64,000 nucleotides of DNA from Antedon mediterranea (Eukaryota > Animalia > Echinodermata): positions 766,101-830,100 of the forward strand of contig NC_092677.1 of assembly GCF_964355755.1 (NCBI RefSeq). Direction: 5' to 3'. Positions 2,896 through 27,248 of this stretch are shown here, in pieces. The number at the start of each line of letters is the position of its first letter. Position 1 is the first letter of the stretch. The position numbers were made by a program, and so were the translations under genes. The notes below the pieces were generated by a model. That model was not told the DNA's origin. It did no database searches and saw only the letters and a program-made list of their open reading frames with translations.

Positions 2896-4299
2896 CTAGA
2901 TTTAATTCGTCACTATGACGAATTATAGGTTATATGCATTGATTTAAATAAAGATAATTGATTTTTAAAAGATATATTGATTGATTGATTTTCTCAGAAT
3001 CTTTAATTATTTATAATATATGATAGGACCTTGCTAACGCGAACACCATAGCCGGTATCACAATCCGATCAAAGATCCATATGCGTATAATGTCATAAAC
3101 CACATTTGTTGTTACATAATAATAAAGACATAAGTTAATTTTTATCTAGATTTCATTGTAAATCATGTGTATAATCTATACACTAAGAAATAAATTTGAA
3201 CAAACAATACGGATAATAAAAAAAAATCTTATTTCGTTTCCCAAGGTGAGACTCGATCTCGGTACCTTGAATGCCATAGACACGAGCACAGACCACCGAG
3301 CCGTACACAACTGACTAAAAGTTGTAGAAAAATTCCTTCGTGTATTTACTATGCAGTAACCACTTTGATGCAAATAGATTATTACATACCGAAATGAATT
3401 ATAATTTTTTACTATGATGACATCTTTAAAATGTATACAAATGATGCACTGTCAAACTACATACTTTTAACTTTAATATATGAATTTTTGAAGGAAGAAA
3501 GTTAATGTTAAGTTTGTTATTTTGGCCTAAGAAAATGTCATAATTTGTTTGATTGTCGAAATTATTTTTTTTAAATTTAATATGCAATTAATGATGACTT
3601 AATCAACTTTTGTTCTCTTTATTTGATAATAAATCATACATATGATACATACACTTCAAGAAAATGAAATAAAAAATAGGTGTTCCCCTGCATTCTGACG
3701 ATATATATTAATTTTAAAATTTAGCATATTTTCACCATTTTGTTAACTTATACGTGCGTAGCCAGTCACTTTTGACGTGCTCGTATAACGCAATTTCGAG
3801 TTGAAACCTGAATCAAATATGATGATATTATTAAAGAAAGATTGTAAAACAGAAATCGGGCAAAAAGAGTGCGCATTAACGTTTAACGCGCAGTGCGCGT
3901 GCAAAAATCTGCGCACTCATGGCATTTTTTTAAACGCTTAAAATTGCCTGAAACGTACTCTAATTTCATCGAAAATAAATTTTGACAATTTTGAACATTT
4001 TAAGCGCGCGTACGCAAGCGTTATATGCGCTACGCACGTAATTTTATTGCCATATGATGAAATATGACCTGAAATTTATGAGTACCAAATTTTGTTTAAT
4101 TGTGATTCATGCTTGTGAAGATATGATTACAAACGTGATTTCGTAAAATCGCGCGTAGACCGCGTAATTTTTGATTACGCATCGTGAAAATATAACCACA
4201 TCGATTCCTGGCCATGAGGAATATACTCTGAAAACTTGACTTAGCTAGATTAAACTGATGCCAAGATAATGCACGGACAAAATAGTGCTAAGGAAAGAA

Positions 4300-4334
<35 letters not shown>

Positions 4335-4382
4335 AGATTTTGACAGAATCAAGAGGTTATATGCATATCATGCATATAACCT
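2896..4382 (-). mobile_element. Complete family-A non-autonomous Helentron (A2)
   Basis: CTAG at 2896, hairpin, subTIR AGGTTATATGCAT; (TAAA)n tract 4298-4335; head 4336-4382 ending in palindrome AGGTTATATGCAT-atc-ATGCATATAACCT. Confidence 0.88.
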
Positions 4383-7222
4383 AACTAGATTTAATTCGTC
4401 ACTATGACGAATTATAGGTTATATGCATTGATAATTAAAATAAAGATAATTTATTTTTAAAAGATATTTTGATTCATTGATTTTCTCAGATTCTTTAAAT
4501 AATATATAATATATGATAGGACCTTGCTAACGCGAATACAATAGCCGGTATCACAATCCGATCAAAGATCCCTCTGCGTATAATGTCATAAACCACATTT
4601 GCTGTTACATAATAATAAAGACATAAGTTATTTGTTATCTAGATTTCATTATAAATCATGTGTATAATATATACACTAAGAAATAAATTTGAACAAACAA
4701 TACGGATAATAAAAAAAAAATTTATTTCGTTTCCCAAGGTGAGACTCGATCTCGGTACCTTGAGTGCCATAGACACGAGCACACACCACCGAGCCATACA
4801 CAACTGACTAAAAATTGTAGAAAAATTCCTCCGTGTATTTACTATGCAGTAACCACTTTGGTGCAGATAGATTATTACATACCGCAATGAATTATAATTT
4901 TTTACTATGATGACATCTCTAAAAATGTACAAAAATGATGCACTGTCAAACTATATACTTTTAACTTTAATATATGAACTTTTGAAGGAAGAAAGTTAAT
5001 GTTAAGTTTGTTATTTTGGCCTAAGAAAATGTCATAATTTGTTTGATTGTCGAAATGAATTTTTTTTAATTTAATATGCAATTAATTATGGCTTAATCAA
5101 CTTTTGTTCCCTTAGTTTAATAATAAATCATACATAAGATACATACACTTCAAGAAAATTAAATAAAAAATAATTATGTGTTCCCGAGCATTCTGACGAT
5201 CTATATTAATTTTAAAATTTAGCATATTTTCACCATTTTGTTAACTTACACGTGCGTAGCCTGTCACTTTTGACGTGCTCGTATAAGGCAATTACGCGTT
5301 GAAAAGTGAATAAAATATGATGATATTATTAAAGAAAGGTTGTACAACCGAAATCGGACAAAAAGAGTGCGCATTAACGTATAACGCGCAGTGCGCGTGC
5401 AAAAATCTGCGCACTCATGGCAATTTTTTAAACGCTTAAAATTGCCTGAAACGTACTCTAATTTCATCGAAAATAAATTTTGACAATTTTGAACATTTTA
5501 AGCGCGCGTACGCAAGCGTTATATGCGCTACGCACGTAATTGTATTGCCATATGATGAAATATGACCTGAAATTTATGAGTACCAAATTTTTTTTAATTG
5601 TGATTCATGCTTGTGAAGATATGATTACAAACGTGATTTCGTAAAATCGCGCGTAGACCGCGTAATTTTTGATTACGCATCGTGAAAATATAACCACATC
5701 GATTCCTGGCCATAAGGAATATACTCTGAAAAATTGACTTAGATAGATGAAACTGATATCAAGATAATTCACGGACAAAATAGTGCTAAGGAAAGAATAA
5801 ATAAACTAGATTTAATTCGTCACTATGACGAATTATAGGTTATATGCATTGATAATTAATATAAAGATAATTGATTTTTAAAAGATATTTTGATTCATTG
5901 ATTTTCTCGGATTCTTTAATTATTTATAATATATGATAGGACCTTGCTAACGCGAATACAATAGCCGGTATCACAATCCGATCAAAGATCCCTCTGCGTA
6001 TAATGTCATAAACCACATTTGCTGTTACATAATAATAAAGACATAAGTTATTTTTTATCTAGATTTCATTATAAATCATGTGTATAATATATACACTAAG
6101 AAATAAATTTGAACAAACAATACGGTTAATAAAAAAAAAATCTTATTTCGTTTCCCAAGGTGAGACTCGATCTCGGTACCTGGAGTGCCATAGACACGAG
6201 CACACACCACCGAGCCATACACAACTGACTAAAAATTGTAGAAAAACTTCCTCCGTGTATTTACTATGCAGTAACCACTTTGATGCAGATAGATTATTAC
6301 ATACCGCAATGAATTATAATTTTTTACTATGATGACATCTCTAAAAATGTACAAAAATGATGCACTGTCAAACTATATACTTTTAACTTTAATATATGAA
6401 CTTTTGAAGGATGAAAGTTAATGTTAAGTTTGTTATTTTGGCCTAAGAAAATGTCATAATTTGTTTGATTGTCGAAAATATTTTTTTTAATTTAATATGC
6501 AATTAATCATGGCTTAATCAACTTTTGTTCCCTTAGTTTAATAATAAATCATACATAAGATACATACACTTCAAGAAAATGAAATAAAAAATATGTGTTC
6601 CCGAGCATTCTGACGATCTATATTAATTTTAAAATTTAGCATATTTTCACCATTTTGTTAACTTACACGTGCGTAGCCTGTCACTTTTGACGTGCTCGTA
6701 TAAGGCAATTACGCGTTGAAAAGTGAATAAAATATGATGATATTATTAAAGAAAGGTTGTACAACCGAAATCGGACAAAAAGAGTGCGCATTAACGTATA
6801 ACGCGCAGTGCGCGTGCAAAAATCTGCGCACTCATGGCAATTTTTTAAACGCTTAAAATTGCCTGAAACGTACTCTAATTTCATCGAAAATAAATTTTGA
6901 CAATTTTGAACATTTTAAGCGCGCGTACGCAAGCGTTATATGCGCTACGCACGTAACTGTATTGCCATATGATGAAATATGACCTGAAATTTATGAGTAC
7001 CAAATTTTGTTTAATTGTGATTCATGCTTGTGAAGATATGATTACAAACGTGATTTCGTAAAATCGCGCGTAGACCGCGTAATTTTTGATTACGCATCGT
7101 GAAAATATAACCACATCGATTCCTGGCCATAAGGAATATACTCTGAAAAATTGACTTAGATAGATGAAACTGATATCAAGATAATTCACGGACAAAATAG
7201 TGCTAAGGAAAGAATAAATAAA

Positions 7223-8851
7223 CTAGAACTTAAACTCGTCACTTGAGGACGAGTTTGGTTATCCGCCAGCAACAAAGCGTATCTTGCGTATTCAAGTACT
7301 TCCAAGTTATGACTTTTCCAAAAAAAGTAGGCTATTCAAAATTAAAACTGCCCTCTCAGTGTAATAACCAACTAAACCCTTTTAAATAATTGTTTTCCCC
7401 TAACGGGACTCGAACCCGGTACCTCTGATACCAAAGTCGGTTGCATTACACATCGAGCCATATGACCACCTGCTGACGAAAATCCGAAGAAAGAGTCCTG
7501 GTTCATTCGGTATGTCGTGAACCCCCTCGATGCAAGTTGATTATTACATATCAAACTTAAATCATAAATTTTACTATGATGAAATCTTCAAAAATTTTAA
7601 ACGCTGATATTTTATGAAAGTACATACTTTCAAGTTTTATATATTAACATGTAAAGAAAAAAGATAAATGTTATGTTTATTGTTTTGCTCTTTGAATATG
7701 TTTATGTTTGTTTGATGATAATTATTTCAAACATTACATTTAATATGCAAATAATGTAGGCATCAAACACTTTTTAACATTCAAGACTATAATAAATTAG
7801 ACCTATGATTAATACACTGCAAGAAAATAAAATAAAAAATGGGGGTAACCTTGCATTCTGATGAACTGTTTCATTTTTAAAAGTAGACATATTTAGGAAC
7901 ATTTTCATAATTTTTTGACGTTTTCGTGCGCAACCTGTCGTGTTTAACGTGCTCGTAGAACGCCATTTCAAGTTGAAAAGTGAATAAAATAACGTAAAAT
8001 TGTTAACCGAAGATTTAAAAACACAAATCGTGTAAAAGAAATGTTTATACGTGTTCCCTGCGCCATGCGCGCGTAAAAATGTGCGCACCAGTGGCAATTT
8101 TTTAAACGCCTAAAATGACCTGAATCGTGCTCTAATTTAATCAAAAATTGATTTGAAGCATTTTAAAATTTCAAACGCCATTTACGCGCGCACTTTCTAA
8201 TGTTACAAATTGCGGTAGCGTTAAAAAAGTTAACTATTGATGTGAAGCAAACGTGGCTGAAAATGACGTTAATAAATATTCATTTGTGTCGAAGTTATAA
8301 CCAATTTAAGATTTTCAGAAAATCACGCGTAACTTACGCTACGCGGCTCTGACATTGTCAAAAAGCTTGGCTGGACAACTTCAGTAAAATGTCTAAATGC
8401 TGAACAAGTTACAACATATTATGTTTACACGTTGAAGAGAAACAGCGTGCACAAAATAAGAAGAGTAAAATATTTCAAACGCAATTTACGCGAAAACTTT
8501 CTAATCTCCAAAAATTTGTTAAACATTCCAAAAGTTAGCCATTGATGTGAAGAAAACGTGGCTGAAAATTTTGTTAAAAAATATTTATCGGTTTCGAAGT
8601 TATGACCGATTTAAGATTTTCAGAAAATCGCGCGTAACTTACGCTACGCGGATCTGACATTGTCAAAAAGCTTGGCAGTACATCTACAGTTAAATGTCTA
8701 TATGTTGATGAAGTTACAACATGTTATGTTAACACGTTAAAGAGAAAACGCGTGCACAAAATCCGAGAAAGAAAGAAGAATAATAAAAAAAAAAAAAAAA
8801 AAAAAAAGTAACACTACAATAACAAAGGTTATCCGCTTGAGGCGGATAACC
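7223..8851 (-). mobile_element. Complete family-B non-autonomous Helentron (B1)
   Basis: CTAG 7223, hairpin AAACTCGTC-acttgag-GACGAGTTT, subTIR GGTTATCCGC; internal ~300-bp direct duplication (~8160-8455, ~8470-8760); GAAA/poly-A tract; head 8808-8851 with GGTTATCCGC-ttgag-GCGGATAACC. Confidence 0.88.
7397..7467 (-). ncRNA. tRNA-derived segment with A/B boxes in family-B bodies (also ~19706, ~21258, ~22815)
   Basis: Minus strand GGTCATA-TGGCTCGATGTG-TAATGCAACCGACTTTGGTATCAGAGGTAC-CGGGTTCGAGTCCCG; canonical T-arm/B-box GGTTCGAGTCC. Confidence 0.6.
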
Positions 8852-11800
8852 AACTAGATTTAATTCGTCACTATGACGAATTATAGGTTATATGCATTGA
8901 TTTAAATAAAGATAATTGATTTTTAAAAGATATATTGATTGATTGATTTTCTCAGAATCTTTAATTATTTATAATATATGATAGGACCTTGCTAACGCGA
9001 ATAGCATAACCGGTATCACAATCCGATCAAAGATCCCTCTGCGTATAATGTCATAAACCGCATTTGTTGTTACATAATAATAAAGACATAAAGTAACTTT
9101 TTATCTAGATTTCATTATAAATCATGTGTATAATCTATACACTAAGAAATAAATTTGAACAATACGGATAATAAAAAAAAAATCTTATTTCGTTTCCCAA
9201 GGTGAGACTCGAACTCGGTACCTTGAATGCCATTGACACGAGCACAGACCATCGAGCCATACACAACTGACTAAAAGTTGGAGAAAAATTCCTCCGTGTA
9301 TTTACTATGCAGTAACCACTTTGGTGCAGATAGATTATTACATACCGCAATGAATTATAATGTTTTACTATGATGACATCTTTAAAAATTTAAAAAAATG
9401 ATGCACTGTCAAACTATATACTTTTAACTTTAATATATGAACTTCTTAAGGAAGAAAGTTAACGTTAAGTTTGTTATTTTGGCCTAAGAAAATGTTATAA
9501 TTTGTTTGATTGTCGAAATTAATTTTGTTAAATTTAATATGCCATTAATGATGACTTAATCAACTTTTGTTCTTCTAATTTCATAATAAATCATACATAT
9601 GATACATACACTTCAAGAAAATTAAATAAAAAATAGGTGTTCCCGAGCATTCTAACGATATATATTAATTTTAAAATTTAGCATATTTTCACCATTTTGT
9701 TAACTTACACGTGCGTAGCCCGTCACTTTTGACGTGCTCGTATAACGCTGTTTCGCGTTGAAAAGTGAATAAAATATGATGATATTATTAAAGAAAGGTT
9801 ATACAACAGTAATCGGACACAAACAGTGCGCATTAACGTTTGACGCGCAGTACGCGTGCAAAAATCTGCGCACTCATGGCAATTTTTTAAACGCTTAAAA
9901 TTGCCTGAAACGTACTCTAATTTCATCGAAAATAAATTCTGACAATTTTCAACATTTTAAGCGCGCGTACGCATGCGTTATATGCGCTACGCACGTAATT
10001 GTATTTCCATATGATGAAATATGACCTGAAATTTATGAGTACCAAATTTTGTTTAAAAGTGATTCATGTTTGTGAAGATATGATTACAAACGTGATTTCG
10101 TTAAATCGCGCGTAGACCGCGTAATTTTTGATTGCGCATCGTGAAAACATAACCACATCGATTCCTGGCCATAAGGAATATACTCTGAAAAATTGACTTA
10201 GATAGATGAAACTGATGCCAAGATAATTCACGGACAAATAGTGCTAAGGAAAGAATAAATAAACTAGATTTAATTCGTCACTATGACGAATTATAGGTTA
10301 TATGCATTGATTTAAATAAAGATAATTGATTTTTAAAAGATATATTGATTGATTGATTTTCTCAGAATCTTTAATTATTTATAATATATGATAGGACCTT
10401 GCTAACGCGAACACCATAGCCGGTATCACAATCCGATCAAAGATCCCTCTGCGTATAATGTCATAAACCGCATTTGTTGTTACATAATAAAAAAGACATA
10501 AAGTAACTTTTTATCTAGATTTCATTATAAATCATGTGTATAATCTATACACTAAGAAATAAATTTGAACAATACGGATAATAAAAAAAAAATCTTATTT
10601 CGTTTCCCAAGGTGAGACTCGAACTCGGTACCTTGAATGCCATTGACACGAGCACAGACCATCGAGCCATACACAACTGACTAAAACTTGGAGAAAAATT
10701 CCTCGGTGTATTTACTATGCAGTAACCACTTTGGTGCAGATAGATTATTACATACCGCAATGAATTATAATGTTTTACTATGATGACATCTTTAAAAATT
10801 TAAAAAAATGATGCACTGTCAAACTATATACTTTTAACTTTAATATATGAACTTCTTAAGGAAGAAAGTTAACGTTAAGTTTGTTATTTTGGCCTAAGAA
10901 AATGTTATAATTTGTTTGATTGTCGAAATTAATTTTGTTGAATTTAATATGCCATTAATGATGACTTAATCAACTTTTGTTCTTCTAATTTCATTATAAA
11001 TCATACATATGATACATACACTTCAAGAAAATTAAATAAAAAATAGGTGTTCCCGAGCATTCTAACGATATATATTAATTTTAAAATTTAGCATATTTTC
11101 ACCATTTTGTTAACTTACACGTGCGTAGCCCGTCACTTTTGACGTGCTCGTATAACGCTGTTTCGCGTTGAAAAGTGAATAAAATATGATGATATTATTA
11201 AAGAAAGGTTATACAACAGTAATCAGACACAAACAGTGCGCATTAACGTTTGACGCGCAGTGCGCGTGCAAAAATCTGCGCACTCATGGCAATTTTTTAA
11301 ACGCTTAAAATTGCCTGAAACGTACTCTAATTTCATCGAAAATAAATTCTGACAATTTTCAACATTTTAAGCGCGCGTACGCAAGCGTTATATGCGCTAC
11401 GCACGTAATTTTATTGCCATATGATGAAATATGACCTGAAATTTATGAGTACCAAATTTTGTTTAATTGTGATTCATGCTTGTGAAGATATGATTACAAA
11501 CGTGATTTCGTAAAATCGCGCGTAGACCGCGTAATTTTTGATTACGCATCGTGAAAATATAACCACATCGATTCCTGGCCATAAGGAATATACTCTGAAA
11601 ACTTGACTTAGCTAGATGAAACTGATGCCAAGATAATGCACGGACAAAATAGTGCTAAGGAAAGAATAAATAAACTAGATTTAATTCGTCACTATGACGA
11701 ATTATAGGTTATATGCATTGATAATTAAAATAAAGATAATTGATTTTTAAAAGATATTTTGATTCATTGATTTTCTCAGATTCTTTAATTATTTATAATA

Positions 11801-14516
11801 TATGATAGGACCTTGCTAACGCGAATACAATAGCCGGTATCACAATCCGATCAAAGATCCCTCTGCGTATAATGTCATAAACCACATTTGCTGTTACATA
11901 ATAATAAAGACATAAGTTATTTTTTATCTAGATTTCATTATAAATCATGTGTATAATATATACACTAAGAAATAAATTTGAACAAACAATACGGTTAATA
12001 AAAAAAAAATCTTATTTCGTTTCCCAAGGTGAGACTCGATCTCGGTACCTTGAGTGCCATAGACACGAGCACACACAACCGAGCCATACACAACTGACTA
12101 AAAATTGTAGAAAAATTCCTCCGTGTATTTACTATGCAGTAACCACTTTGATGCAGATAGATTATTACATACCGCAATGAATTATAATTTTTTACTATGA
12201 TGACATCTCTAAAAATGTACAAAAATGATGCACTGTCAAACTATATACTTTTAACTTTAATATATGAACTTTTGAAGGATGAAAGTTAATGTTAAGTTTG
12301 TTATTTTGGCCTAAGAAAATGTCATAATTTGTTTGATTGTCGAAAATATTTTTTTTAATTTAATATGCAATTAATCATGGCTTAATCAACTTTTGTTCCC
12401 TTAGTTTAATAATAAATCATACATAAGATACATACACTTCAAGAAAATGAAATAAAAAATATGTGTTCCCGAGCATTCTGACGATCTATATTAATTTTAA
12501 AATTTAGCATATTTTCACCATTTTGTTAACTTACACGTGCGTAGCCTGTCACTTTTGACGTGCTCGTATAAGGCAATTACGCGTTGAAAAGTGAATAAAA
12601 TATGATGATATTATTAAAGAAAGGTTGTACAACCGAAATCGGACAAAAAGAGTGCGCATTAACGTATAACGCGCAGTGCGCGTGCAAAAATCTGCGCACT
12701 CATGGCAATTTTTTAAACGCTTAAAATTGCCTGAAACGTACTCTAATTTCATCGAAAATAAATTTTGACAATTTTGAACATTTTAAGCGCGCGTACGCAA
12801 GCGTTATATGCGCTACGCACGTAACTGTATTGCCATATGATGAAATATGACCTGAAATTTATGAGTACCAAATTTTGTTTAATTGTGATTCATGCTTGTG
12901 AAGATATGATTACAAACGTGATTTCGTAAAATTGCGCGTAGACCGCGTAATTTTTGATTACGCATCGTGAAAATATAACCACATCGATTCCTGGCCATAA
13001 GGAATATACTCTGAAAAATTGACTTAGATAGATGAAACTGATATCAAGATAATTCACGGACAAAATAGTGCTAAGGAAAGAATAAATAAACTAGATTTAA
13101 TTCGTCACTATGACAAATTATAGGTTATATGCATTGATTTAAATAAAGATAATTGATTTTTAAAAGATATATTGATTGATTGATTTTCTCAGAATCTTTA
13201 ATTATTTATAATATATGATAGGACCTTGCTAACGCGAACACCTTAGCCGGTATCACAATCCGATCAAAGATCCATATGCGTATAATGTCATAAACCACAT
13301 TTGTTGTTACATAATAATAAAGACATAAGTTACTTTTTATCTATATTTCATTATAAATCATGTGTATAATCTATACACTAAGAAATAAATTTGAACAAAC
13401 AATACGGATAATAAAAAAAAAATCTTATTTCGTTTCCCAAGGTGAGACTCGATCTCGGTACCTTGAATGCCATAGACACGAGCACAGACCATCGAGCCAT
13501 ACACAACTGACTAAAAGTTGTAGAAAAATTCCTTCGTGTATTTACTATGCAGTAACCACTTTGGTGCAAATAGATTATTACATACCGCAATGAATTATAA
13601 TTTTTTACTATGATGACATCTTTAAAAATGTAAACAAATGATGCACTGTCAAACTATATACTTTTAACTTTAATATATGAACTTCTTAAGAAAGAAAGTT
13701 AATGTTAAGTTTGTTATTTCGGCCTAAGAAAATGTCATAATTTGTTTGATTGTCGAAATTAATTTTTGTAAATTTAATATGCCATTAATGATGACTTAAT
13801 CAAATTTTGTTCTCTTAATTTTATAATAAATCATACATATGATACATACACTTCAAGAAAATGAAATAAAAAATAGCTGTTCCCGAGCATTCTAACGATA
13901 TATATTAATTTTAAAATTTAGCATATTTTCACCATTTTGTTAACTTACACGTGCGTAGCCTGTCACTTTTGACGTGCTCGTATAACGCTGTTTCGCGTTG
14001 AAAAGTGAATAAAATATGATGATATTATTAAAGAAAGGTTATACAACAGTAATCGGACAAAAACAGTGCGCATTAACGTTTGACGCGCAGTGCACGTGCA
14101 AAAATCTGCGCACTCATGGCAATTTTTTAAACGCTTAAAATTGCCTGAAACGTACTCTAATTTCATCGAAAATAAATTCTGACAATTTTCAACATTTTAA
14201 GCGCGCGTACGCATGCGTTATATGCGCTACGCACGTAATTGTATTGCCATATGATGAAATATGACCTGAAATTTATGAGTACCAAATTTTGTTTAAAAGT
14301 GATTCATGCTTGTGAAGATATGATTACAAACGTGATTTCGTTAAATCGCGCGTAGACCGCGTAATGTTTGATTGCGCACCCTGAAAACATAACCACATCG
14401 ATTCCTGGCCATAAGGAATATACTCTGAAAAATTGACTTAGATAGATGAAACTGATATCAAGATAATTCACGGACAAAATAGTGCTAAGGAAAGAATAAA
14501 TAAATAAATAAATAAA

Positions 14517-16107: not shown

Positions 16108-17702
16108 CTAGACATGAAACTCGTCACTTTGACGAGTTAGTTATCCGCACAACGACAAACGCCACGTGCACGTCATACGTTAGAATATTGCACACAGATA
16201 AAGATTATGGCATTATGACAAGAACTGAAGAATATGATATGCTGTTAGTGCTGAATTCTGTCAATTTTGTGTCATATAGTATATACATGCAAACAGTATA
16301 ATCTGTATACATATTACATACAGTGTAGAATAGGTGAAATTACGAGACCCGCCATTTATTCAAATTTTTAACATGGCGACGGTATCAAAATGAAACACTT
16401 AAATATCAATTTCAGAAGGAAATTATCTCAGAAACAACATATTAACGTGTAGAAGAAATTTGAATACGTAAAATATAGATGCGCACCCTTTTAAATGTGA
16501 TGAACTATTACGCAAAATATGAAAATACGACTTTTTTTATTCAACTGGCCATATGATGACGTCACAACATCCGATTGGCAAAATGTTTACATGAATTCGT
16601 ATCTACAATCCAATAGCTTCCAGAAAACGTTTTAATCGTGATTATCACATTTTATTCTTACGAGCTATTACAGATTAAAATTTACTGTAAAGATGAAATT
16701 AATGACCAATGTAATTTAAATTTTTAGGCATGATGACGTTAAAAAAATTAAAAAATTTTTAATTCATGCAAAAGATAGTTGATTGACCTAGAATATATTA
16801 AAATCGGGGTGAAAATGGACAACGAATAAGTGGAGATGCGCTCTATTAAATGTGATGAGCTATGACGAAAGAGACAAAAATCCTATATTTTATATTCGCG
16901 TGGCCTTACGATGACGTCACAATGTCCGGTTAGCCATATTAATGCATGATTCGATATCTACAACTTATCAACTTCCAGAATATGTAATTTAAAAAAAGTT
17001 CTCCATGTAGTTTAGAATCTATGACTGTTTAAAAATAGGCATAATTTTGACGAATTTTTGAACTTTTTCACCAGAAACGCGTGCAAATTATTTAATTCGA
17101 CGTGCTCGTATGACGTAATTTAAGTCGAAATTGTTTAAAAGTTGGTAACATTACTATAAAAGGCTGAAAAAACATAAATCACGCGAAAAAAATATGTTTT
17201 TAACGCTACGCGTGTACCGCGTGCGTAAAAAGTTTCGCGCGCGTGGGAATTTTTGACATGCTCAAAATGACATGAAACGCATAGAAAGTTGATTAGAAGT
17301 TGATTTTTCGCATTCTAAAATTTTAAACGCGCGTGCGCGCGTAACTTTTTGTGAAACATGCTATTTTTAATCCATAGAAAGTTAGCGCTTGATGTGACTT
17401 AAATTTTCACAAAGTGTCAAAACAAAATTATGTTTCGTTTTTAGTCTATGATCAATCATTGAAATTCATAAAATCGCGCATAAGTCACGTTGCCCAACTC
17501 TGACGTCATTCAAAAATAGGAGGTGCACAAGTTCACGTAAATGTCGATATGTTGACAAAGTTACGATATGTTCTGTTTACACGTTTTAGAGAAACGCGAC
17601 GCACAAAAATGACAGAAGGAAAGAAGTATAATACAGAAAAAAAAAAAAAATATGATGAAACAGGACGATTACAAGGAGTTATCCGCTACTAAGCGGATAA
17701 CT
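16108..17702 (-). mobile_element. Complete family-C non-autonomous Helentron (C1) nested in A9
   Basis: CTAG 16108, hairpin AACTCGTCActtTGACGAGTT, subTIR AGTTATCCGC; head palindrome AGTTATCCGCT-acta-AGCGGATAACT ending 17702; followed by the displaced A head 17721-17766. Confidence 0.88.
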
Positions 17703-17776
17703 AATAAAGAAATAAATAAAGATTTTGACAGAATCAAGAGGTTATATGCATGAATGCATATAACCTAATAAATAAA

Positions 17777-19353
17777 CTAGACATGAAACTCGTCACTTTG
17801 ACGAGTTAGTTATCCGCACGACAAACGCCACGAGCACGTCATGCGTTGGAATATTGCACACAGAAAAAGATTATGGCATTATGACCTGAAGAAGAATATG
17901 ATTATGTTATTATTGCTGAATTCTGTTATTTTGTGTCATAGTATACACAGTATAATCTGTATACATCACATACAGTGTAGAATAGGTGAAATTACGGGAC
18001 CCGCTATTTATTCCAATTTTTAACATGTTGACGGTTTCAAAATGAAACCCGAAGGTAGCAATTTCGGAAGGAAATTATCTCAGCAACAACATATTAGCAT
18101 GTAGAAGAAATTTGAATACGTGAAATATTGATGCGCGCTCTTTTAAATGTAATGAATTATAATGCAAAAGATGAAAATACGACTTTTTTTATTTAACTGG
18201 CCATATGATGACTTCACAACATCCGATTGGCAAAATGTTCACATGATTTCGTATCTACAATTCAATAGCTTCCAGAAAACGTTTTAATCGTGATTATCAC
18301 ATTTCATTCTTATGAGCTATAACAGATTAAAATTTACTGTAAAGATGAAATTTATGCAACATGTAATTTAAATTTTTAGGCATGATGACGTCATAAAAAT
18401 TAAAATATTTTTAACTCATGCGAAAGACAGTTGATTGACCTAGACAATATCAAAATCGGGGTGAAAATGGAAAACGGATAAGTGTAGATGCGCTCTATTA
18501 AATGTGATGAGCTATGACGAAAGATACAAAAATCCTAAATTTTGTATTCGCGTGGCCATACAGTGACGTCACAATGTCCGGTTAGCCATATTAATGCATG
18601 ATCCGATATTTACAACTCATCAACTTCCAGAATATGCAATAAAAATAACTTTCACCGTTTGGTTTAGAAACTACGACTGTTTAAAAAAAGGTATAATTTT
18701 GACAAATTTTGACAAATTTTTGAACTTTTTCATAAAAAACGCACATAAATTATCCAATTCAACGTGCCCGTATGACGTGATTTTAAGTCGAAAATGTTTA
18801 GAAATTGGTAAAATTACTAAAAAAGGGTGGAAAAACATAAATCACGGGAAAAAAAATGTTTTCAACGCTACGTGTGCACCGCACGCGTAAAAAAATGCGC
18901 ACGCATGGGAATTTTTGACATGCTCAAAATGACATGAAACGTGTAGAAAGTTGATTAGAAATTGATTTTTCTCAATTTGAAATTTTAAACGCGCATGCGC
19001 GCGTAACTTCGTGTGAAACATGCCATTTTTTTACCACAGTCAGTTAGCGCAAGATATAAATTAAACTTTTGTTAAGTTTAAATTTAAATTGTTATATGGT
19101 TTTCGATCTATATTAAATACGAGAAATTCGTAAAAACGCGCGTAAGTCATGTTGCGCAACTCTGTCGTCATTCACAATAGGAGGTGCACTATTTCACGTG
19201 AATGCCCACATGTTGACAAAGTTATAAAATGTTATGTTTACACGTTTTTGAGTTACGCGAGACACAAAATTGACAGAAAGAAAGAATAATACAGAAAAAA
19301 AAAAAGATGATTTCATACAGTTACAAGGAGTTATCCGCTGAATGCGGATAACT
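17777..19353 (-). mobile_element. Complete family-C non-autonomous Helentron (C2)
   Basis: Same termini as C1; head AGTTATCCGC-tgaat-GCGGATAACT ending 19353. Confidence 0.88.
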
Positions 19354-19375
19354 AATAAATAAATAAATAAATAAA

Positions 19376-19530
19376 GATTTTGACAGAATCAAGAGGTTAT
19401 ATGCATATCATGCATATAACCTAATAAAGATTTTGACAGAATCAAGAGGTTATATGCATGATAATGCATATAACCTAATAAAGATTTTGACAGAATCAAG
19501 AGGTTATATGCATGATAATGCATATAACCT
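19376..19530 (-). repeat. Stack of three family-A 5' heads
   Basis: Heads at 19376, 19429 and 19483; loops atc, gata, gata. Confidence 0.95.
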
Positions 19531-19532
19531 AA

Positions 19533-22500
19533 CTAGATCTTAAACTCGTCACTTGAGGACGAGTTTGGTTATCCGCCCGCAACAAAACGTATCTTGCGCA
19601 TTCAAGTACTTTTCAGTTGTGACTTTTCCAAAAAAAGTAGCCTATTCAAAATTAAAACTGCCCTTTAAGTGTAATAACCAAACAAATCCTTTTATTTAAT
19701 TGTTTTCCCGTAATGAGATTTGAACCCGGTACCTCTGATACCAAAGTCGGTTGCACTACACATCGAGTCATATGAGCACCTGCTGAAGAAAATCCGAAGA
19801 AAGAGTCCTCGTTCATTCGGTATGTCGTGAATCCCCTCGATGCAAGTTGATTATTACATATCAAACTTATATCATAAATTTTACTATGATGAAATGTTCA
19901 CAAATTTTAAACAGTGACATATTAGCAAAGTGCATACTTTCAAGTTTTATATATCAACATGTAAAGAAAAAAGATAAACGTTATGTTTATTGTTTTGCTC
20001 TTTGAATATGTTATTGTTTGTTTGATGATAAAAATTTCGAAAATTATATTTAATATGCAAATAATGTAGCCATCAAACACGTTTTAACATTCAACACTAT
20101 AATAAATCAGATCTACGATTCATAGACTGTAAAAAAATAAAATAAAAAATGGGGGTAACCGTGCATTCTGATGAACTGTATCACTTTTAAAAGTAGACAT
20201 ATTTTGCAACATTTTCACAATTTGTTGACGTTTTCGTGCGCAACCAGTCATGTTTAACGTGCTCGTAGAACGCCATTTCAAGTTGAAAAGTGAATAAAAT
20301 AACGTAAAATTGTTAACCTAAGTTTGAAAAAGACAATTTATGTAAAAGAAAAGCTCATACGCGTTCCCTGCGCCGTGCGCGCGTAAAAATGTTCGCACCA
20401 GTGGAAATTTTTAAACCCTTAAAATGACCTGAAACGTGCTCTAATTTAATCAGAAATTGATTTGAAGCATTTTAAAATTTTAAACGCCGTTTACGCACGC
20501 ACTTTCTAATGTTACAAAATTCGGTAGGGATAAAAAAGTTAACAATTAATGTAAAGCAAACGTGGCTGAAAATTACGTTAAAAAATATTTATCTGTTTCA
20601 AAGTTATGATCAATTTAAGATTTTCAGAAAATCGCGCGTAACTTACGATACGCGCATCATACAGCGTCCAAAAGCTTGACTGCACATCTTCAGTTAAAAG
20701 TCTATATGTTGACCAAGTTACAACATGTTATGTTCACGCGTTGCAGAGAAACGGCGTGTACAAATTTGGAGCATTTTAAAATTTCAAACGCAATTTACGC
20801 GCAAACTTTCTAGTCTCCAAAAATGTGCTAAAGATTGAAAAAGTTAGCCATTGATGTGAGGAAAACGTGGCTGCAAGTTACGTTAAAAAATATTTATCGG
20901 TTTCGAAGTTATGTTCAATTTAATATTTTCAGAAAATTGCGCGTAACTTACGCTACGCGGATCTGACAGAGTCCAAAAGCTTGGCTGCACATCTTCAGTT
21001 AAATTTCTAAATGTTTACCAAGTTACAACATGTTATGTTAACACGTTGCAGAGAAACGTCGCGTACAAAAAGTGGCGGAAAGAAAGAAGAATAACTAGAT
21101 CTGAACTCGTCACTTGAGGACGAGTTTGGTTATCCGCCCGCAACAAAACGTATCTTGCGCATTCAAGTACTTTTCAGTTGTGACTTTTCCAAAAAGTAGC
21201 CTATTCAAAATTAAAATTGCCCTTTCAGTGTAATAACCAAACAAATCCTTTTATTTCTCCGTGATGAGATTTGAACCCGGTACCTCTGATACCAAAGTCG
21301 GTTGCACTAAACATCGAACCATATGAGCACCTGCTGAAGAAAATCCGAAGAAAGAGTCCTCGTTCATTCGGTATGTCGTGAATCCCCTCGATGCAAGTTG
21401 ATTATTACATATCAAACTTAAATCATAAATTTTACGATGATGAAATCTTCACAAATTTTAAACAGTGACATTTAGCAAAGTGCATACTTTCAAGTTTTAT
21501 ATATCAACATGTAAAGAAAAAAGATAAACGTTATGTTTATTGTTTTGCTCTTTGAAAATGTTATTGTTTGTTTGATGATAAAAATTTCGAAAATTATATT
21601 TAATATGCAAATAATGTAGCCATCAAACACGTTTTAACATTCAACACTATAATAAATCAGATCTACAATTCATAGGCTGTAATAAAATAAAATAAAAAAT
21701 GGGGGTAACCTTGCATTCTGATGAACTGTATCACTTTTAAAAGTAGACATATTTTGCAACATTTTCACAATTTGTTGACGTTTTCGTGCGCAACCAGTCA
21801 TGTTTAACGTGCTCGTAGAACGCCATTTCAAGTTGAAAAGTGAATAAAATAACGTAAAATTGTTAACCTAAGTTTGAAAAACACAATTTATGTAAAAGAA
21901 AAGCTCATACGCGTTCCCTGCGCCATGCGCGCGTAAAAATGTGCGCTCCAGTGGCAATTTTTAAACCCTTAAAATGACCTGAAACGTGCTCTAATTTAAT
22001 CAGAAATTGATTTGAAGCATTTTAAAATTTCAAACGCCGTTTACGCACGCACTTTCTAATGTTACAAAATTCGGTAGGGATAAAAAAGTTAACAATTAAT
22101 GTAAAGCAAACGTGGCTGAAAATTACGTTAAAAAATATTTATCTGTTTCAAAGTTATGATCAATTTAAGATTTTCAGAAAATCGCGCGTAACTTACAATA
22201 CGCGCATCATACAGCGTCCAAAAGCTTGGCTGCACATCTTCAGTTAAATGTCTATATGTTGACCAAGTTACAACATGTTATGTTCACGCGTTGCAGAGAA
22301 ACAGCGTGTACAAATTTGGACCATTTTAAAATTTCAAACGCAATTTACGCGCAAACTTTCTAGTCTCCAAAAATGTGCTAAAGATTGAAAAAGTTAGCCA
22401 TTGATGTGAAGAAAACGTGGCTGCAAGTTACGTTAAAAAATATTTATCGGTTTCGAAGTTATGATCAATTTAAGATTTTCAGAAAATTGCGCGTAACTTA

Positions 22501-24209
22501 CGCTACGCGGATCTGACAGCGTCCAAAAGCTTGGCTGCACATCTTCAGTTAAATTTCTAAATGTTTACCAAGTTACAACATGTTATGTTAACACGTTGCA
22601 GAGAAACGTCGCGTACAAAAAGTGGCGGAAAGAAAGAAGAACTAGATCTGAACTCGTCACTTGAGGACGAGTTTGGTTATCCGCCCGCAACAAAACATAT
22701 CTTGAGCATTCAAGTACTTTTCAGTTTTTGGCTTTTCCAAAAAAGTAGCCTATTCGAAATTAAAACTGCCTTTTCAGTGTAACAACCAAATAAATCCTTA
22801 TATTTAATTGTTTTCCCGTGACGGGACTCGATCCCGGTACCTCTGATACCAAAGTCGGTTGCACTACACATCGAGTCATATGAGCACCTGCCGAAGATAA
22901 TCCGAAGAAAGATTACTCGTTCGTTCGGTATGTCGTGAACTCCCTCGATGCAAGTTGATTATTACATATCGAACTAAATCATAATTTTTACTATGATGAA
23001 ATCTTCATAAATTTTAAACAGTGACATATTATGAAAGAGCATACTTTCAAGTTTTATATATTAACATGTGAAGAAAAAATATAACAGTTATGTCTATTGT
23101 TTTGCTCTTTGAAAATGTTATCGTTTGTTTGATGATAACAATTTCCAAAATTATATTTAATATGCAAATAGTGTAGCCAGCAAACACGTTTTAACATTAA
23201 AAATTATTATAAATCAGATCTATGATTCATAAACTGCAAGAAATAAAAATAAAAAATAGGGGTAACCTTGCATTCTGATGAACTGTATCGTTTTTAAAAG
23301 TAGACATATTTTGCAACATTTTCACAATTTTTTGACGTTTTTCTGCGCAACCAGTCATGTTTAACGTGCTCGTAGAACGCCATTTCAAGTTGAATAGTGA
23401 ATAAAATAACGTAAAATTGTTAACCAAAGATGTAAAAACATAAATCGTGTAAAAGAAATGCTCATACGCGTTCCCTGCGCCGTGCGCGCGTAAAAATGTG
23501 CGCACCAGTGGCAATTTTTTAAACGCTTAAAATGACCTGAATCGTGCTCTAATTTAATCAGAAATTAATTTCAAGCATTTTAAAACTTCAAACGTCGTTT
23601 ACGCGCTTTTTCGAATGTTACAAAATTCGTTAGGGTTAAAAAAGTTAACAATTGATGTGAAGCAAACGTGGCTGAAAATTACGTTAAAAAATATTTATCT
23701 GTTTCAAAGTTATGATCAATTTAAGATTTTCAGAAAATCGCGCGTAACTTACGATAAGCGCCTCTGACAGCGTCCAAAAGCTTGGCTGCACAATTTCAGT
23801 TAGATGTCAAAATGTTGACCAAGTTACAACATGTTATGTTAACGCGTTGCAGAGAAACAGCGTGTACAAATTTGGAGAATTTTTAAATTTCAAACGCAAT
23901 TTACGCGAAAATTTTCTAGTCTCCAAAAATTTGGTAGAGATCGAAAAAGTTAGCCATTGATGTGAAGAAAACGTGGCTGAAAACTTCGTTAAAAAATATT
24001 TATCGGTTTTGAAGTTATGACCGATTTAAGATTTTCAGAAAATCGCGCGTAACTTACGCTACGCGTATCTGACAGCGTCCAAAAGCTTGGCTGCACAACT
24101 TCAGTTAAATGTCTAAATGTTGACCAAGTTACAACGTGTTATGTTAACACGTTGAAGAGAAACGTCGCGAACAAAAGTGGCGGAAAGAAAGAAGAATAAT
24201 AAAAAAAAA
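19533..24209 (-). mobile_element. Three nested family-B bodies (B2-B4)
   Basis: CTAG-hairpin-GGTTATCCGC at 19533, 21095 and 22642; ~1.55-kb bodies homologous to B1. Confidence 0.88.
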
Positions 24210-27050
24210 CTAGATTTAATTCGTCACTATGACGAATTATAGGTTATATGCATTGATAATTAAAATAAAGATAATTTATTTTTAAAAGATATTTTGATTC
24301 ATTGATTTTCTCAGATTCTTTAAATAATATATAATATATGATAGGACCTTGCTAACGCGAATACAATAGCCGGTATCACAATCCGATCAAAGATCCCTCT
24401 GCGTATAATGTCATAAACCACATTTGCTGTTACATAATAATAAAGACATAAGTTATTTTTTATCTAGATTTCATTATAAATCATGTGTATAATATATACA
24501 CTAAGAAATAAATTTGAACAAACAATACGGATAATAAAAAAAAAAATTTATTTCGTTTTCCAAGGTGAGACTCGATCTCGGTACCTTGAGTGCCATAGAC
24601 ACGAGCACACACCACCGAGCCATACACAACTGACTAAAAATTGTAGAAAAATTCCTCCGTGTATTTACTATGCAGTAACCACTTTGGTGCAGATAGATTA
24701 TTACATACCGCAATGAATTATAATTTTTTACTATGATGACATCTCTAAAAATGTACAAAAATGATGCACTGTCAAACTATATACTTTTAACTTTAATATA
24801 TGAACTTTTGAAGGAAGAAAGTTAATGTTAAGTTTGTTATTTTGGCCTAAGAAAATGTCATAATTTGTTTGATTGTCGAAATGAATTTTTTTTAATTTAA
24901 TATGCAATTAATTATGGCTTAATCAACTTTTGTTCCCTTAGTTTAATAATAAATCATACATAAGATACATACACTTCAAGAAAATTAAATAAAAAATATG
25001 TGTTCCCGAGCATTCTGACGATCTATATTAATTTTAAAATTTAGCATATTTTCACCATTTTGTTAACTTACACGTGCGTAGCCTGTCACTTTTGACGTGC
25101 TCGTATAAGGCAATTACGCGTTGAAAAGTGAATAAAATATGATGATATTATTAAAGAAAGGTTGTACAACCGAAATCGGACAAAAAGAGTGCGCATTAAC
25201 GTATAACGCGCAGTGCGCGTGCAAAAATCTGCGCACTCATGGCAATTTTTTAAACGCTTAAAATTGCCTGAAACGTACTCTAATTTCATCGAAAATAAAT
25301 TTTGACAATTTTGAACATTTTAAGCGCGCGTACGCAAGCGTTATATGCGCTACGCACGTAATTGTATTGCCATATGATGAAATATGACCTGAAATTTATG
25401 AGTACCAAATTTTGTTTAATTGTGATTCATGCTTGTGAAGATATGATTACAAACGTGATTTCGTAAAATCGCGCGTAGACCGCGTAATTTTTGATTACGC
25501 ATCGTGAAAATATAACCACATCGATTCCTGGCCATAAGGAATAATACTCTGAAAAATTGACTTAGATAGATGAAACTGATATCAAGATAATTCACGGACA
25601 AAATAGTGCTAAGGAAAGAATAAATAAACTAGATTTAATTCGTCACTATGACGAATTATAGGTTATATGCATTGATAATTAAAATAAAGATAATTTATTT
25701 TTAAAAGATATTTTGATTCATTGATTTTCTCAGATTCTTTAAATAATATATAATATATGATAGGACCTTGCTAACGCGAATACAATAGCCGGTATCACAA
25801 TCCGATCAAAGATCCCTCTGCGTATAATGTCATAAACCACATTTGCTGTTACATAATAATAAAGACATAAGTTATTTTTTATCTAGATTTCATTATAAAT
25901 CATGTGTATAATATATACACTAAGAAATAAATTTGAACAAACAATACGGATAATAAAAAAAAAAATTTATTTCGTTTCCCAAGGTGAGACTCGATCTCGG
26001 TACCTTGAGTGCCATAGACACGAGCACACACCACCGAGCCATACACAACTGACTAAAAATTGTAGAAAAATTCCTCCGTGTATTTACTATGCAGTAACCA
26101 CTTTGGTGCAGATAGATTATTACATACCGCAATGAATTATAATTTTTTACTATGATGACATCTCTAAAAATGTACAAAAATGATGCACTGTCAAACTATA
26201 TACTTTTAACTTTAATATATGAACTTTTGAAGGAAGAAAGTTAATGTTAAGTTTGTTATTTTGGCCTAAGAAAATGTCATAATTTGTTTGATTGTCGAAA
26301 TGAATTTTTTTAAATTTAATATGCAATTAATTATGGCTTAATCAACTTTTGTTCCCTTAGTTTAATAATAAATCATACATAAGATACATACACTTCAAGA
26401 AAATGAAATAAAAAATATGTGTTCCCGAGCATTCTGACGATCTATATTAATTTTAAAATTTAGCATATTTTCACCATTTTGTTAACTTACACGTGCGTAG
26501 CCTGTCACTTTTGACGTGCTCGTATAAGGCAATTACGCGTTGAAAAGTGAATAAAATATGATGATATTATTAAAGAAAGGTTGTACAACCGAAATCGGAC
26601 AAAAAGAGTGCGCATTAACGTATAACGCGCAGTGCGCGTGCAAAAATCTGCACACTCATGGCAATTTTTTAAACGCTTAAAATTGCCTGAAACGTACTCT
26701 AATTTCATCGAAAATAAATTTTGACAATTTTGAACATTTTAAGCGCGCGTACGCAAGCGTTATATGCGCTACGCACGTAATTGTATTGCCATATGATGAA
26801 ATATGACCTGAAATTTATGAGTACCAAATTTTGTTTAATTGTGATTCATGCTTGTGAAGATATGATTACAAACGTGATTTCGTAAAATCGCGCGTAGACC
26901 GCGTAATTTTTGATTACGCATCGTGAAAATATAACCACATCGATTCCTGGCCATAAGGAATATACTCTGAAAAATTGACTTAGATAGATGAAACTGATAT
27001 CAAGATAATTCACGGACAAAATAGTGCTAAGGAAAGAATAAATAAATAAA

Positions 27051-27248
27051 GATTTTGACAGAATCAAGAGGTTATATGCATGATAATGCATATAACCTAA
27101 TAAAGATTTTGACAGAATCAAGAGGTTATATGCATGATAATGCATATAACCTAAAAAGAAACACTACAATAACAAAGGTTATCCGCTTGAGGCGGATAAC
27201 CAATAATATAAAAAAAGAAACACTACAATTCCAAGGGCTTATCCGCTA
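27051..27248 (-). repeat. Mixed head stack A, A, B, B(truncated)
   Basis: A heads at 27051 and 27105; B head 27158-27201; a second B-type head from 27218 breaks off at ...CTTATCCGCT and fuses to internal D-body sequence. Confidence 0.92.

What the first reader, a model, noticed from the sequence alone, without database searches (positions are those of the whole stretch)
4255..27152. A body SNP predicts the head loop variant under last-in-first-out pairing across up to 14 kb
Seen: bodies ending ACTGATGCCAAG (A2, A5, A6) pair with heads whose loop is 'atc' (4336, 19376, 14645). Bodies ending ACTGATATCAAG (A3, A4, A7, A8, A10, A11) pair with 'gata' loops (19483, 19429, 14579, 14517, 27105, 27051). 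A9 (GATGCC) pairs with a unique 'ga' loop (17721). Loop orders gata-gata-atc and atc-gata-gata mirror the body orders. This is independent internal evidence that separated heads and bodies were once contiguous.
Basis: seen in the sequence. Interest (0 to 1): 0.8.

Follow-up and report, generated by a model that had tools for sequence, protein, structure and literature searches.

The report
Nested Helentron-type transposons, heads matched to bodies
The separated "heads" and "bodies" are the two parts of small non-coding rolling-circle transposons (Helentron-type) that were likely split when later copies landed in a short TAAA repeat each copy carries behind its end hairpin; the marker match between heads and bodies is there but is only modest extra support for this ordinary kind of transposon nesting.

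Summary
There are 11 family-A bodies carrying ACTGAT(AT/GC)CAAG and 10 heads that are identical except for the hairpin loop (gata x6, atc x3, ga x1). Last-in-first-out pairing puts AT with gata (6 of 6) and GC with atc or ga (4 of 4).

Statistically this is modest. The chance of a perfect match is 1/210 with free pairing, 1/30 if a head must lie downstream of its body, and 1/20 for the 7 pairs that are really separated. First-in-first-out pairing still scores 8 of 10. The body order AT AT GC GC AT AT is its own mirror image. The 'ga' loop is most simply a gata derivative, so A9 is arguably an exception.

The interpretation (heads and bodies once contiguous) is nevertheless well supported by stronger evidence:
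- All 17 head closings in 1480-29491 match the family on top of the stack across four families.
- The joined flanks restore the (TAAA)n tract.
- 7 of 8 interrupted A copies are cut after exactly two TAAA units.

The elements have the anatomy of HINE/DINE-1-like non-autonomous Helentrons. An autonomous Helentron gene set lies at 29553-37834. This is a new member of a known kind. The test on solo copies could not be run because no genome is held.

The parts
1480..2895 (-). A1 body (SNP AT at 2848-2849); cut after 2 TAAA units; no head in the window
2896..4384 (-). A2, uninterrupted copy: SNP GC, (TAAA)9, head with loop atc (hairpin 4356-4380)
4385..5805 (-). A3 body (AT), cut after 2 TAAA units; its head is 19479-19532
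19479..19532 (-). A3 head, loop gata (hairpin 19503-19528), 1 TAAA unit
5806..7222 (-). A4 body (AT), cut after 2 units by B1; head 19425-19478
19425..19478 (-). A4 head, loop gata (hairpin 19449-19474), 1 unit
7223..8853 (-). B1, uninterrupted copy of a second family (hairpin GTTATCCGC-ttgag-GCGGATAAC at 8828-8850), sitting in A4's tract
8854..10263 (-). A5 body (GC), cut after 2 units; its tract holds three insertions (A6 stack, A9, D2) separated by TAAA (14694-14697) and TAAATAAA (17769-17776); head 19356-19424
19356..19424 (-). A5 head, loop atc (hairpin 19396-19420), 5 units
10264..11674 (-). A6 body (GC); head 14629-14693
14629..14693 (-). A6 head, loop atc (hairpin 14665-14689), 4 units
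11675..13090 (-). A7 body (AT); head 14567-14628
14567..14628 (-). A7 head, loop gata (hairpin 14599-14624), 3 units
13091..14566 (-). A8, uninterrupted copy: SNP AT, (TAAA)5, loop gata (hairpin 14537-14562)
14698..16107 (-). A9 body (GC on an alpha-subfamily body), cut after 1 unit by D1; head 17705-17768
17705..17768 (-). A9 head, loop ga (hairpin 17741-17764)
16108..17704 (-). D1, uninterrupted copy of a third family inside A9
17777..19355 (-). D2, uninterrupted copy of the third family inside A5's tract
24210..25628 (-). A10 body (AT), inside B4; head 27101-27154
27101..27154 (-). A10 head, loop gata (hairpin 27125-27150), 1 unit
25629..27100 (-). A11, uninterrupted copy: SNP AT, (TAAA)3, loop gata (hairpin 27071-27096)
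19533..24209 (-). B2, B3, B4 bodies (starts 19533, 21095, 22642); B4 head at 27155-27203, B3 half-head at about 27204-27252 fused to a truncated E copy
29553..37834 (+). Autonomous Helentron coding region in two overlapping frames: OTU, DUF6570, Helitron_like_N (Rep); then PIF1 helicase and Exo_endo_phos endonuclease
40525..52594 (-). Second stack (E2-E5, F1-F3, E6-E8), same orientation; only one F head (about 49760-49818) for three F bodies

Best explanation
Family A is a non-coding Helentron-type (HINE / DINE-1-like) rolling-circle transposon, and its separated heads and bodies were likely made by later copies landing, all in one orientation, in the (TAAA)n tract that each copy carries about 20 bases inside its end hairpin.

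**Anatomy, shown by the sequence.** Read on the minus strand, each copy has these parts in order:
- about 20 further bases, then (TTTA)n;
- about 1.4 kb of body;
- the 13-mer ATGCATATAACCT again, a 10-bp stem-loop, and AAATCTAG.

**How the pattern arises, inferred.** A newcomer cuts the resident between its body and its 54-base hairpin end. Repeated hits therefore give body-body-body...head-head-head, which closes last-in-first-out. Every insert brings a fresh tract, so the stack can keep growing. The strand-asymmetric T-rich target would explain why all 27 element starts face the same way.

**Why the SNP tracks the loop.** The SNP lies 85-108 bases from the loop in intact copies. Both markers were inherited together from the source copy. 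This end block is a haplotype of its own that cuts across the body subfamilies: A8 is a beta body with AT/gata, and A9 is an alpha body with GC/ga.
For: **Anatomy**
- 27 starts of the form CTAGA + stem-loop + GGTTATxxxx lie on the + strand and none on the minus strand.
- The hairpin ends are listed.
- All three loop variants fold as 12-13 bp DNA hairpins (z-scores -6 to -8), and the other end forms a 10-bp stem-loop.
- The layout matches the published HINE anatomy: 5' subTIR + complementary IR + microsatellite, then 3' subTIR + palindrome, T-rich/TT targets and no target duplication (PMC4067079 and PMC7492417, passages read).
- A 3'-CTAG end with a stem-loop, and a microsatellite behind the 5' repeat, are also reported for lepidopteran elements (PMC4344730, passages).

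**Nesting**
- 17 of 17 closings match the family on top of the stack.
- The ten LIFO pairs agree on SNP and loop.
- The tract is restored in phase. 7 of 8 interrupted A copies are cut after exactly 2 units, and A3, A4 and A10 sum to 3 units like intact A11.
- A5's tract holds three separate inserts at unit boundaries.
- All 13 insertions into A hosts in the parse lie in this tract or at a sibling's end. Intact A11 meanwhile offers 213 AA dinucleotides, four other AAATAAA sites and an unused run of 11 A.

**Subfamilies**
- Adjacent copies are of different subfamilies, while distant ones are near-identical.

**Partner**
- A Helentron gene set (Rep, DUF6570, PIF1 helicase, endonuclease, OTU) lies in the same window.

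**Copy number**
- More than 10,000 contig pieces of one run lie on a single A copy.
Against: - The SNP-loop statistic alone is weak: 1/20 to 1/30 under positional constraints, and FIFO pairing gives 8 of 10.
- A9 pairs GC with a loop that is most simply derived from gata.
- The stack rule is not universal in the window. In the second stack three F bodies (96-97% alike) share a single F head, and several E copies stay open.
- A1 and B2 have no heads, and at about 27250 a half hairpin is fused to a truncated E copy. Later deletions, or movement of composites, must therefore be invoked.
- The exact cut (A^T or T^T) cannot be fixed, because two bases are ambiguous at the junction.
- The autonomous copy shows neither terminus. 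It is therefore not shown to be the partner of family A, and its gene reads opposite to the conventional terminal orientation.
- No intact solo copies from elsewhere in the genome could be examined.
Confidence: 0.88

Rival explanations
1. Partial rolling-circle amplification or unequal crossing-over made the arrays. On this view the bodies were tandemly duplicated as 1.41-kb units and the 54-62 base heads were duplicated separately by slippage, so heads and bodies were never paired one to one.
For: - Tandem, truncated Helitron arrays, and over-amplified 5' ends from partial rolling-circle replication, are described in plants (Xiong et al. 2016). I saw this only as cited in passages of PMC7348941 and PMC5148889.
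- The body-body junction is identical in 7 of 8 cases.
- Tandem Repeats Finder reports the heads as 54-62 base tandem repeats.
- Three F bodies share one head.
Against: - Head counts equal the number of open bodies in every A cluster, and four families interleave with 17 of 17 correct closings.
- Adjacent bodies differ by about 5%, while copies 20 kb apart are 99.7% alike.
- Heads within one cluster differ in loop in the order LIFO predicts.
- Microsatellite pieces of varying length lie between sibling inserts.
Confidence: 0.04
2. Part of the stack arrived ready-made. Composite units, with several bodies on one head or several heads on one body, would have been mobilised from a nest elsewhere by end-bypass or by starting at an outer 5' end. 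Some neighbours here would then not have been split in situ.
For: - The F1-F2-F3 run with a single head is what starting at the innermost 5' end and bypassing two 3' ends would give (my inference).
- Multiple 5' termini arising from self-insertion followed by re-mobilisation are proposed for Fusarium Helitron2-like elements (PMC5148889, passages).
Against: - In the A stack, heads and bodies balance and pair by marker, so no composite is needed there.
- No second copy of any composite junction context could be examined.
Confidence: 0.2
3. The SNP-loop agreement is coincidence, or local homogenisation between neighbouring repeats. It would then carry no information on pairing.
For: - There are only two common haplotypes and ten pairs.
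- The constrained probability is 1/20 to 1/30, and FIFO pairing gives 8 of 10.
- The body order is palindromic.
Against: - The three uninterrupted copies already show GC-atc (A2) and AT-gata (A8, A11) in physical linkage.
- Only the two SNP columns, out of 169 variable ones, track the loops, and they are among the variable sites nearest the head.
- The nearer site, column 1390 (G in A2 and A6 only), nests inside the atc class.
Confidence: 0.06
4. The array is an assembly artefact of a very high-copy repeat.
For: - The family is hugely repeated in the read contigs.
- Several copies here are 99.6-99.7% identical.
Against: - A mis-join would not be expected to give a bracket-balanced, family-matched structure with in-phase microsatellite restoration.
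- Short-read contigs show a head preceded by the end of another head (loose ends ATGCATATAACCT before 27041 and 27045). These may come from the same sample as the assembly, so they are not independent.
Confidence: 0.03

Closest known systems
HINE / DINE-1-like non-autonomous Helentrons (Thomas, Vadnagara & Pritham 2014, PMC4067079; oyster Cg_HINE, PMC7492417; passages read)
   Same: - 5' subterminal repeat two bases from the terminus, with its complement close by.
- A microsatellite just inside that repeat.
- A 3' copy of the repeat followed by a stem-loop about 8 bases from the end.
- T-rich target, no target duplication, no coding capacity, very high copy number.
- A Helentron gene set with endonuclease and OTU domains in the same window.
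   Different: - Family A has no central tandem-repeat array.
- The passages I read do not describe landing in the element's own microsatellite at a near-fixed unit, or deep same-orientation stacks.
- The autonomous gene here reads opposite to the conventional terminal orientation. That is reported as the minority case (Helentron-Da-40 in PMC4067079; 'HLE2-reverse' in PMC11417382).
Self-insertion and multiple 5' termini in Fusarium Helitron2-like elements (Chellapan et al. 2016, PMC5148889; passages read)
   Same: - Insertion of one copy near the 5' end of another is proposed as the origin of short (<200 bp) repeated 5' termini and of nested or composite elements.
- It is also proposed as a route to reversed ORF orientation.
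   Different: - The Fusarium cases involve few copies and no microsatellite target.
- There the idea is a hypothesis drawn from duplicated termini. Here the hosts' bodies and heads are both present and can be paired.
Paramecium chromosome-end Helitrons that insert into one strand of telomeric repeats (PMC13085455; passages read)
   Same: Strand-specific insertion into a short tandem repeat fixes the orientation and builds same-orientation arrays with repeat blocks left between copies.
   Different: - The target there is the host telomere repeat, not a repeat carried by the element.
- It is a different Helitron clade.
Lepidopteran Helitron-like elements that disrupt (GAAA)n microsatellites (Coates et al. 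2010)
   Same: A microsatellite serves as the landing site for DINE-1-like elements.
   Different: I saw only the title, in the reference lists of PMC4067079 and PMC4344730. I could not check its details.

Membership tests
HINE (non-autonomous Helentron, HLE2 group) | 11-15 base subterminal inverted repeats: the 5' one 2-4 bases from the terminus, the 3' one 38-60 bases from the other terminus | tested here: met
   On the minus strand the element reads TT-AGGTTATATGCAT at the 5' end. ATGCATATAACCT lies about 35-48 bases from the CTAG end. Criteria are from PMC4067079 passages.
HINE (non-autonomous Helentron, HLE2 group) | Complementary inverted repeat (or palindromic subTIR) next to the 5' subTIR | tested here: met
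   The 13-base repeat and its complement are separated by 2-4 bases. They fold as a 12-13 bp hairpin in all three variants.
HINE (non-autonomous Helentron, HLE2 group) | Stem-loop (palindrome) 8-35 bases from the 3' terminus, after the 3' subTIR | tested here: met
   AATTCGTCA-tag-TGACGAATT is followed by AAATCTAG, giving a 10-bp stem.
HINE (non-autonomous Helentron, HLE2 group) | Short variable microsatellite inside the 5' region | tested here: met
   (TAAA)3 to (TAAA)10 on the + strand, with variable length between copies.
HINE (non-autonomous Helentron, HLE2 group) | Insertion in T-rich sequence at TT, without target-site duplication | tested here: inconclusive
   - No duplication: the joined flanks restore the tract exactly.
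- The cut can be written A^T, or T^T on the element's sense strand, because two bases are ambiguous at the junction.
HINE (non-autonomous Helentron, HLE2 group) | Termini shared with an autonomous Helentron (Rep + helicase + endonuclease) | tested here: inconclusive
   - A Helentron gene set is present at 29553-37834.
- Its copy shows neither terminus. It shares with the E family a pre-hairpin tract (81% over 100 bases).
- A roughly 120-base block (41251-41370, in the E-like copy just downstream) is about 74% alike in the A copies.
HINE (non-autonomous Helentron, HLE2 group) | No coding capacity | tested here: met
   No open frame of 150 aa or more overlaps an A copy. The one partial exception is 978-1493 (-), which only touches A1's first 14 bases.
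Canonical Helitron (HLE1) | 5' TC, 3' CTRR with a nearby hairpin, no terminal inverted repeats, A^T target | tested here: not met
   - The 3' CTAG and hairpin are present.
- The 5' end is TTAGG, not TC.
- Clear subterminal inverted repeats exist.
- The window's transposase carries DUF6570, which the HELIANO authors give as an HLE2 marker (PMC11417382 passage).

The most novel reading that the evidence does not exclude
The tract behind the 5' hairpin is a dedicated landing pad rather than just another T-rich spot. The Helentron machinery would recognise a resident copy's end (the hairpin plus the polypyrimidine/TTTA tract) and cut at a measured position, two units from the body side in 7 of 8 A hosts. 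These elements would then home into their own kind, build one-way stacks that record insertion order, and could seed satellite-like arrays.
Probability: 0.35. Interest if true: 0.55.

Novelty: new member of a known kind. Interest (0 to 1): 0.28.

Why it matters
The result has three practical uses.

- **Annotation.** It shows how to read such loci. What looks like a 1.4-kb satellite with odd clusters of 54-base repeats is a dated stack of complete transposons. Repeat annotators would otherwise report headless fragments and orphan termini.
- **Mechanism.** Within-family markers that pair across 14 kb give a simple internal check for nesting as opposed to rolling-circle amplification, a distinction debated for Helitron arrays.
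- **Target choice.** If the near-fixed cut position reflects recognition of the element's own end, it would be a testable case of target choice by a Helentron transposase/endonuclease. I found no biochemical study of this in my searches.

The SNP-loop match itself is a small confirmatory detail.

Tried and rejected
  - No whole genome is held for this window.
  - Exact scans for the 31-base head core found 0 matches in metagenome contigs and 0 in genome contigs.
  - Runs holding the family were found and their contigs laid twice. The contigs are mostly 60-250 bases and none of the listed pieces spans both the SNP and the loop, so linkage could not be read.
  - The calls did show loop-length variants (2 bases or 1 base left out at 27082-27083) in several contigs of one sample. 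No GC variant at 26999-27000 was listed. That position is only 12 bases from the end of the laid stretch, so this says nothing.
- **tRNA-like stretch in the A body.** The stretch around 4725-4800 looked tRNA-like by eye. ARAGORN found no tRNA in the window, and Rfam found nothing at gathering score or at E<=1 in 4600-4900. I dropped it.
- **Canonical Helitron reading.** This was my first guess, from the hairpin + CTAG end and an A^T junction. I rejected it because of the subterminal inverted repeats, the TTAGG 5' end and the HLE2-type gene set.
- **Finding the termini of the autonomous copy.** There is no start or hairpin token between 29492 and 40524. Its left end abuts the head of a truncated E copy.
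- **ORF 978-1493 (-).** It has no Pfam match.
- **Earlier scan notes for this genome.** There are none.

Full report
**What is there**

The window is about 30% G+C. From 1480 to about 52600 it is packed with elements that all face the same way. On the + strand there are 27 starts of the form CTAGA, then a 9-10 bp stem-loop, then GGTTAT(ATGCAT or CCGC). None lies on the minus strand. About 20 ends carry a hairpin GTTATxxxx-loop-xxxxATAAC followed by C(T/C)AA or TAA.

Family A has 11 bodies of about 1.41 kb and 10 heads. The ten heads are identical over GATTTTGACAGAATCAAGAGGTTATATGCAT-loop-ATGCATATAACCTAA. They differ only in the loop: GATA six times, ATC three times, GA once. The body motif ACTGATRYCAAG occurs 11 times, with AT seven times and GC four times. 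All coordinates in the finding are correct.

**What the elements are**

Read on the minus strand, an A copy has these parts in order:
- TT, then the 13-mer AGGTTATATGCAT, a 2-4 base spacer and the complementary 13-mer;
- about 20 bases, then (TTTA)n;
- the body;
- ATGCATATAACCT again, AT, a 10-bp stem-loop, and AAATCTAG.

Both end structures fold as single-stranded DNA, and all three spacer variants give a 12-13 bp hairpin. This is the published anatomy of HINEs, the non-autonomous partners of Helentrons: 5' subTIR with a complementary repeat and a microsatellite, 3' subTIR followed by a palindrome, T-rich targets, and no target duplication (PMC4067079 and PMC7492417, passages).

The window also holds a Helentron gene set on the + strand. 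Frame 29553-34532 carries OTU, DUF6570 and Helitron_like_N. Frame 34469-37834 carries PIF1 helicase and Exo_endo_phos. A language-model look-alike search agrees with PIF1/Helitron-type eukaryotic proteins. This copy shows no terminus of its own, and its frames overlap at 34469-34532.

If it belongs with the pre-hairpin tract at 40426-40524 (81% like the E family), its gene reads opposite to the conventional terminal orientation. That arrangement is reported as a minority form (PMC4067079 passage; 'HLE2-reverse', PMC11417382 passage). This step is inferred.

**Nesting**

I treated starts as openings and hairpin ends as closings. Start and end types were assigned to families from the uninterrupted copies (A2, A8, A11, B1, D1, D2, E1). 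On that basis the stretch 1480-29491 parses as:

A1[ A2 ][ A3[ A4[ B1 ][ A5[ A6[ A7[ A8 ]]][ A9[ D1 ]][ D2 ]]]]][ B2[ B3[ B4[ A10[ A11 ]]][ E0[ E1 ]]..

All 17 closings match the family on top of the stack. A1 and B2 stay open. The head labels could be ordered in 4,084,080 ways, and 1 of 500,000 random orders matched fully. Two of the 17 closings rest on judgement: the half hairpin at about 27238 counted as B3's head, and the variant hairpin at 29462 counted as the head of truncated E0.

Each interrupted A body ends ...GGAAAGAA(TAAA)2|CTAG in 7 of 8 cases, and after one unit in A9. Each separated head begins with the remaining units. The joined flanks therefore restore an in-phase tract with no duplicated bases.

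A3, A4 and A10 each sum to three units. That is the length in intact A11, to which A3 and A10 are 99.6-99.7% identical and A4 98.8%. A5's tract holds three separate inserts at unit boundaries, with TAAA and TAAATAAA left between them.

In the parse, 13 insertions went into A hosts. All lie in this tract or exactly at a sibling's end. Intact A11, by contrast, offers 213 AA dinucleotides, four other AAATAAA sites and an unused run of 11 A.

Adjacent bodies are often from different subfamilies (94.8-94.9%), and distant ones are near-identical (99.6-99.7%). Local tandem duplication does not fit this.

**The finding itself**

Under LIFO pairing the ten pairs are GC-atc (A2, A5, A6), GC-ga (A9) and AT-gata (A3, A4, A7, A8, A10, A11). 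The support this gives is real but modest:
- Free pairing gives perfect agreement with probability 1/210.
- Requiring each head to lie downstream of its body gives 1/30.
- A2, A8 and A11 are physically contiguous with their heads. For the seven separated pairs the figures are 1/35 and 1/20.
- FIFO pairing scores 8 of 10.
- The order AT AT GC GC AT AT is palindromic, so the 'mirror' argument adds little.

Only the two adjacent SNP columns split the copies like the loops, and three distinct 4:6 patterns exist, which gives 3/210.

The SNP is among the variable sites closest to the head. The still closer site (column 1390, G in A2 and A6 only) nests within the atc class.

The main subfamily split (A2, A5, A6, A8 against the rest; 18 columns) does not track the loops. 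A8 is a beta body with AT/gata, and A9 is an alpha body with GC/ga. The last roughly 40 bases of the body plus the head thus form their own haplotype block, which is what physical contiguity predicts.

There is one caveat. 'ga' is most simply gata minus two bases, so A9 may be a GC copy with a gata-lineage head. In that case the rule holds for 9 of 10 pairs.

**Limits and exceptions**

- In the second stack (40525-52594) three F bodies, 96-97% alike, share one F head. Several E copies remain open.
- A1 and B2 lack heads.
- At about 27250 a half hairpin is fused to a 5'-truncated E copy across the shared letters CTAC.
- Loss of tandem heads, or mobilisation of composites by end-bypass, would explain these exceptions. 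A related idea is proposed for Fusarium elements with multiple 5' termini (PMC5148889 passages). Neither explanation is shown here.
- The exact cut can be written A^T, or T^T on the sense strand. Both fit because two bases are ambiguous.

**Test on solo copies**

This test was not possible. No genome is held, and exact scans of two collections found nothing. Contigs of runs that hold the family are too short to span both the SNP and the loop. They do show that the family is extremely abundant (more than 10,000 pieces in one run). They also show that loop-length variants occur in several contigs. All four runs come from one sample, which may be the assembly's source.

**Comparison and novelty**

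- Self-insertion near the 5' end, with resulting multiple 5' termini, has been proposed for Helitron2-like elements in Fusarium (PMC5148889).
- Strand-specific repeat targeting that fixes orientation is proposed for Paramecium Helitrons (PMC13085455).
- Microsatellite disruption by lepidopteran elements is known to me by title only.
- The rival model, rolling-circle amplification of truncated Helitrons, is cited in PMC7348941.
- My searches found no paper describing HINE stacks built in the element's own microsatellite. That covers only the library those searches cover.
- Earlier notes of this scan report the same kind of stack in several other genomes. Those are unchecked leads, not support.

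I rate this a new member of a known kind. The SNP-loop pairing is a neat but minor internal confirmation.

Noticed in passing
29553-37834 (+): A near-complete autonomous Helentron coding region: OTU, DUF6570 and Rep in one frame, then PIF1 helicase and endonuclease in a second. The two frames overlap at 34469-34532, which could be a frameshift or an intron. Neither terminus of this copy is visible, and its left edge abuts the head of a truncated E copy at 29491.
   Followed up: partly
45155-49818: Three F-family bodies (96-97% alike) are cut at the same point (...gaagaagaa|CTAG) but share only one F head, which carries a (GAT)8 tract. The stack rule fails here. Possible causes are a composite moved by end-bypass or loss of tandem heads.
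   Followed up: partly
27204-27260: A half hairpin (CTTATCCGCTAC) is fused directly to the interior of an E-family copy across the shared letters CTAC. This is a deletion or template-switch junction inside the nest.
   Followed up: partly
37968-39135: A 386-base tandem repeat of 2.8 copies (89% matches) lies downstream of the Helentron genes. It resembles the central repeats described in HINEs and Helentrons.
   Followed up: no
32171-32667: A 54-base (18-codon) tandem repeat of 8.8 copies lies inside the first Helentron frame. It encodes repeated KFRQNCKQKLAEKYRSNL units.
   Followed up: no
alignment of A copies (columns 1343-1398; e.g. 26960-27030 in A11): The last roughly 40 bases of the body plus the head form a haplotype block that cuts across the three body subfamilies (A8 and A9 are mosaics). 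This suggests recombination or template switching between HINE copies.
   Followed up: partly
62025-62138: A 32-base palindromic tandem repeat (GCCAAAACCGGTCCGGCGGACCAATTTTGGCT, 3.5 copies) lies outside the nests. Its nature is unknown.
   Followed up: no
4725-4800 (and the same place in other A copies): A stretch that looks tRNA-like by eye on the minus strand. ARAGORN and Rfam found nothing there, so it is probably not a tRNA.
   Followed up: yes
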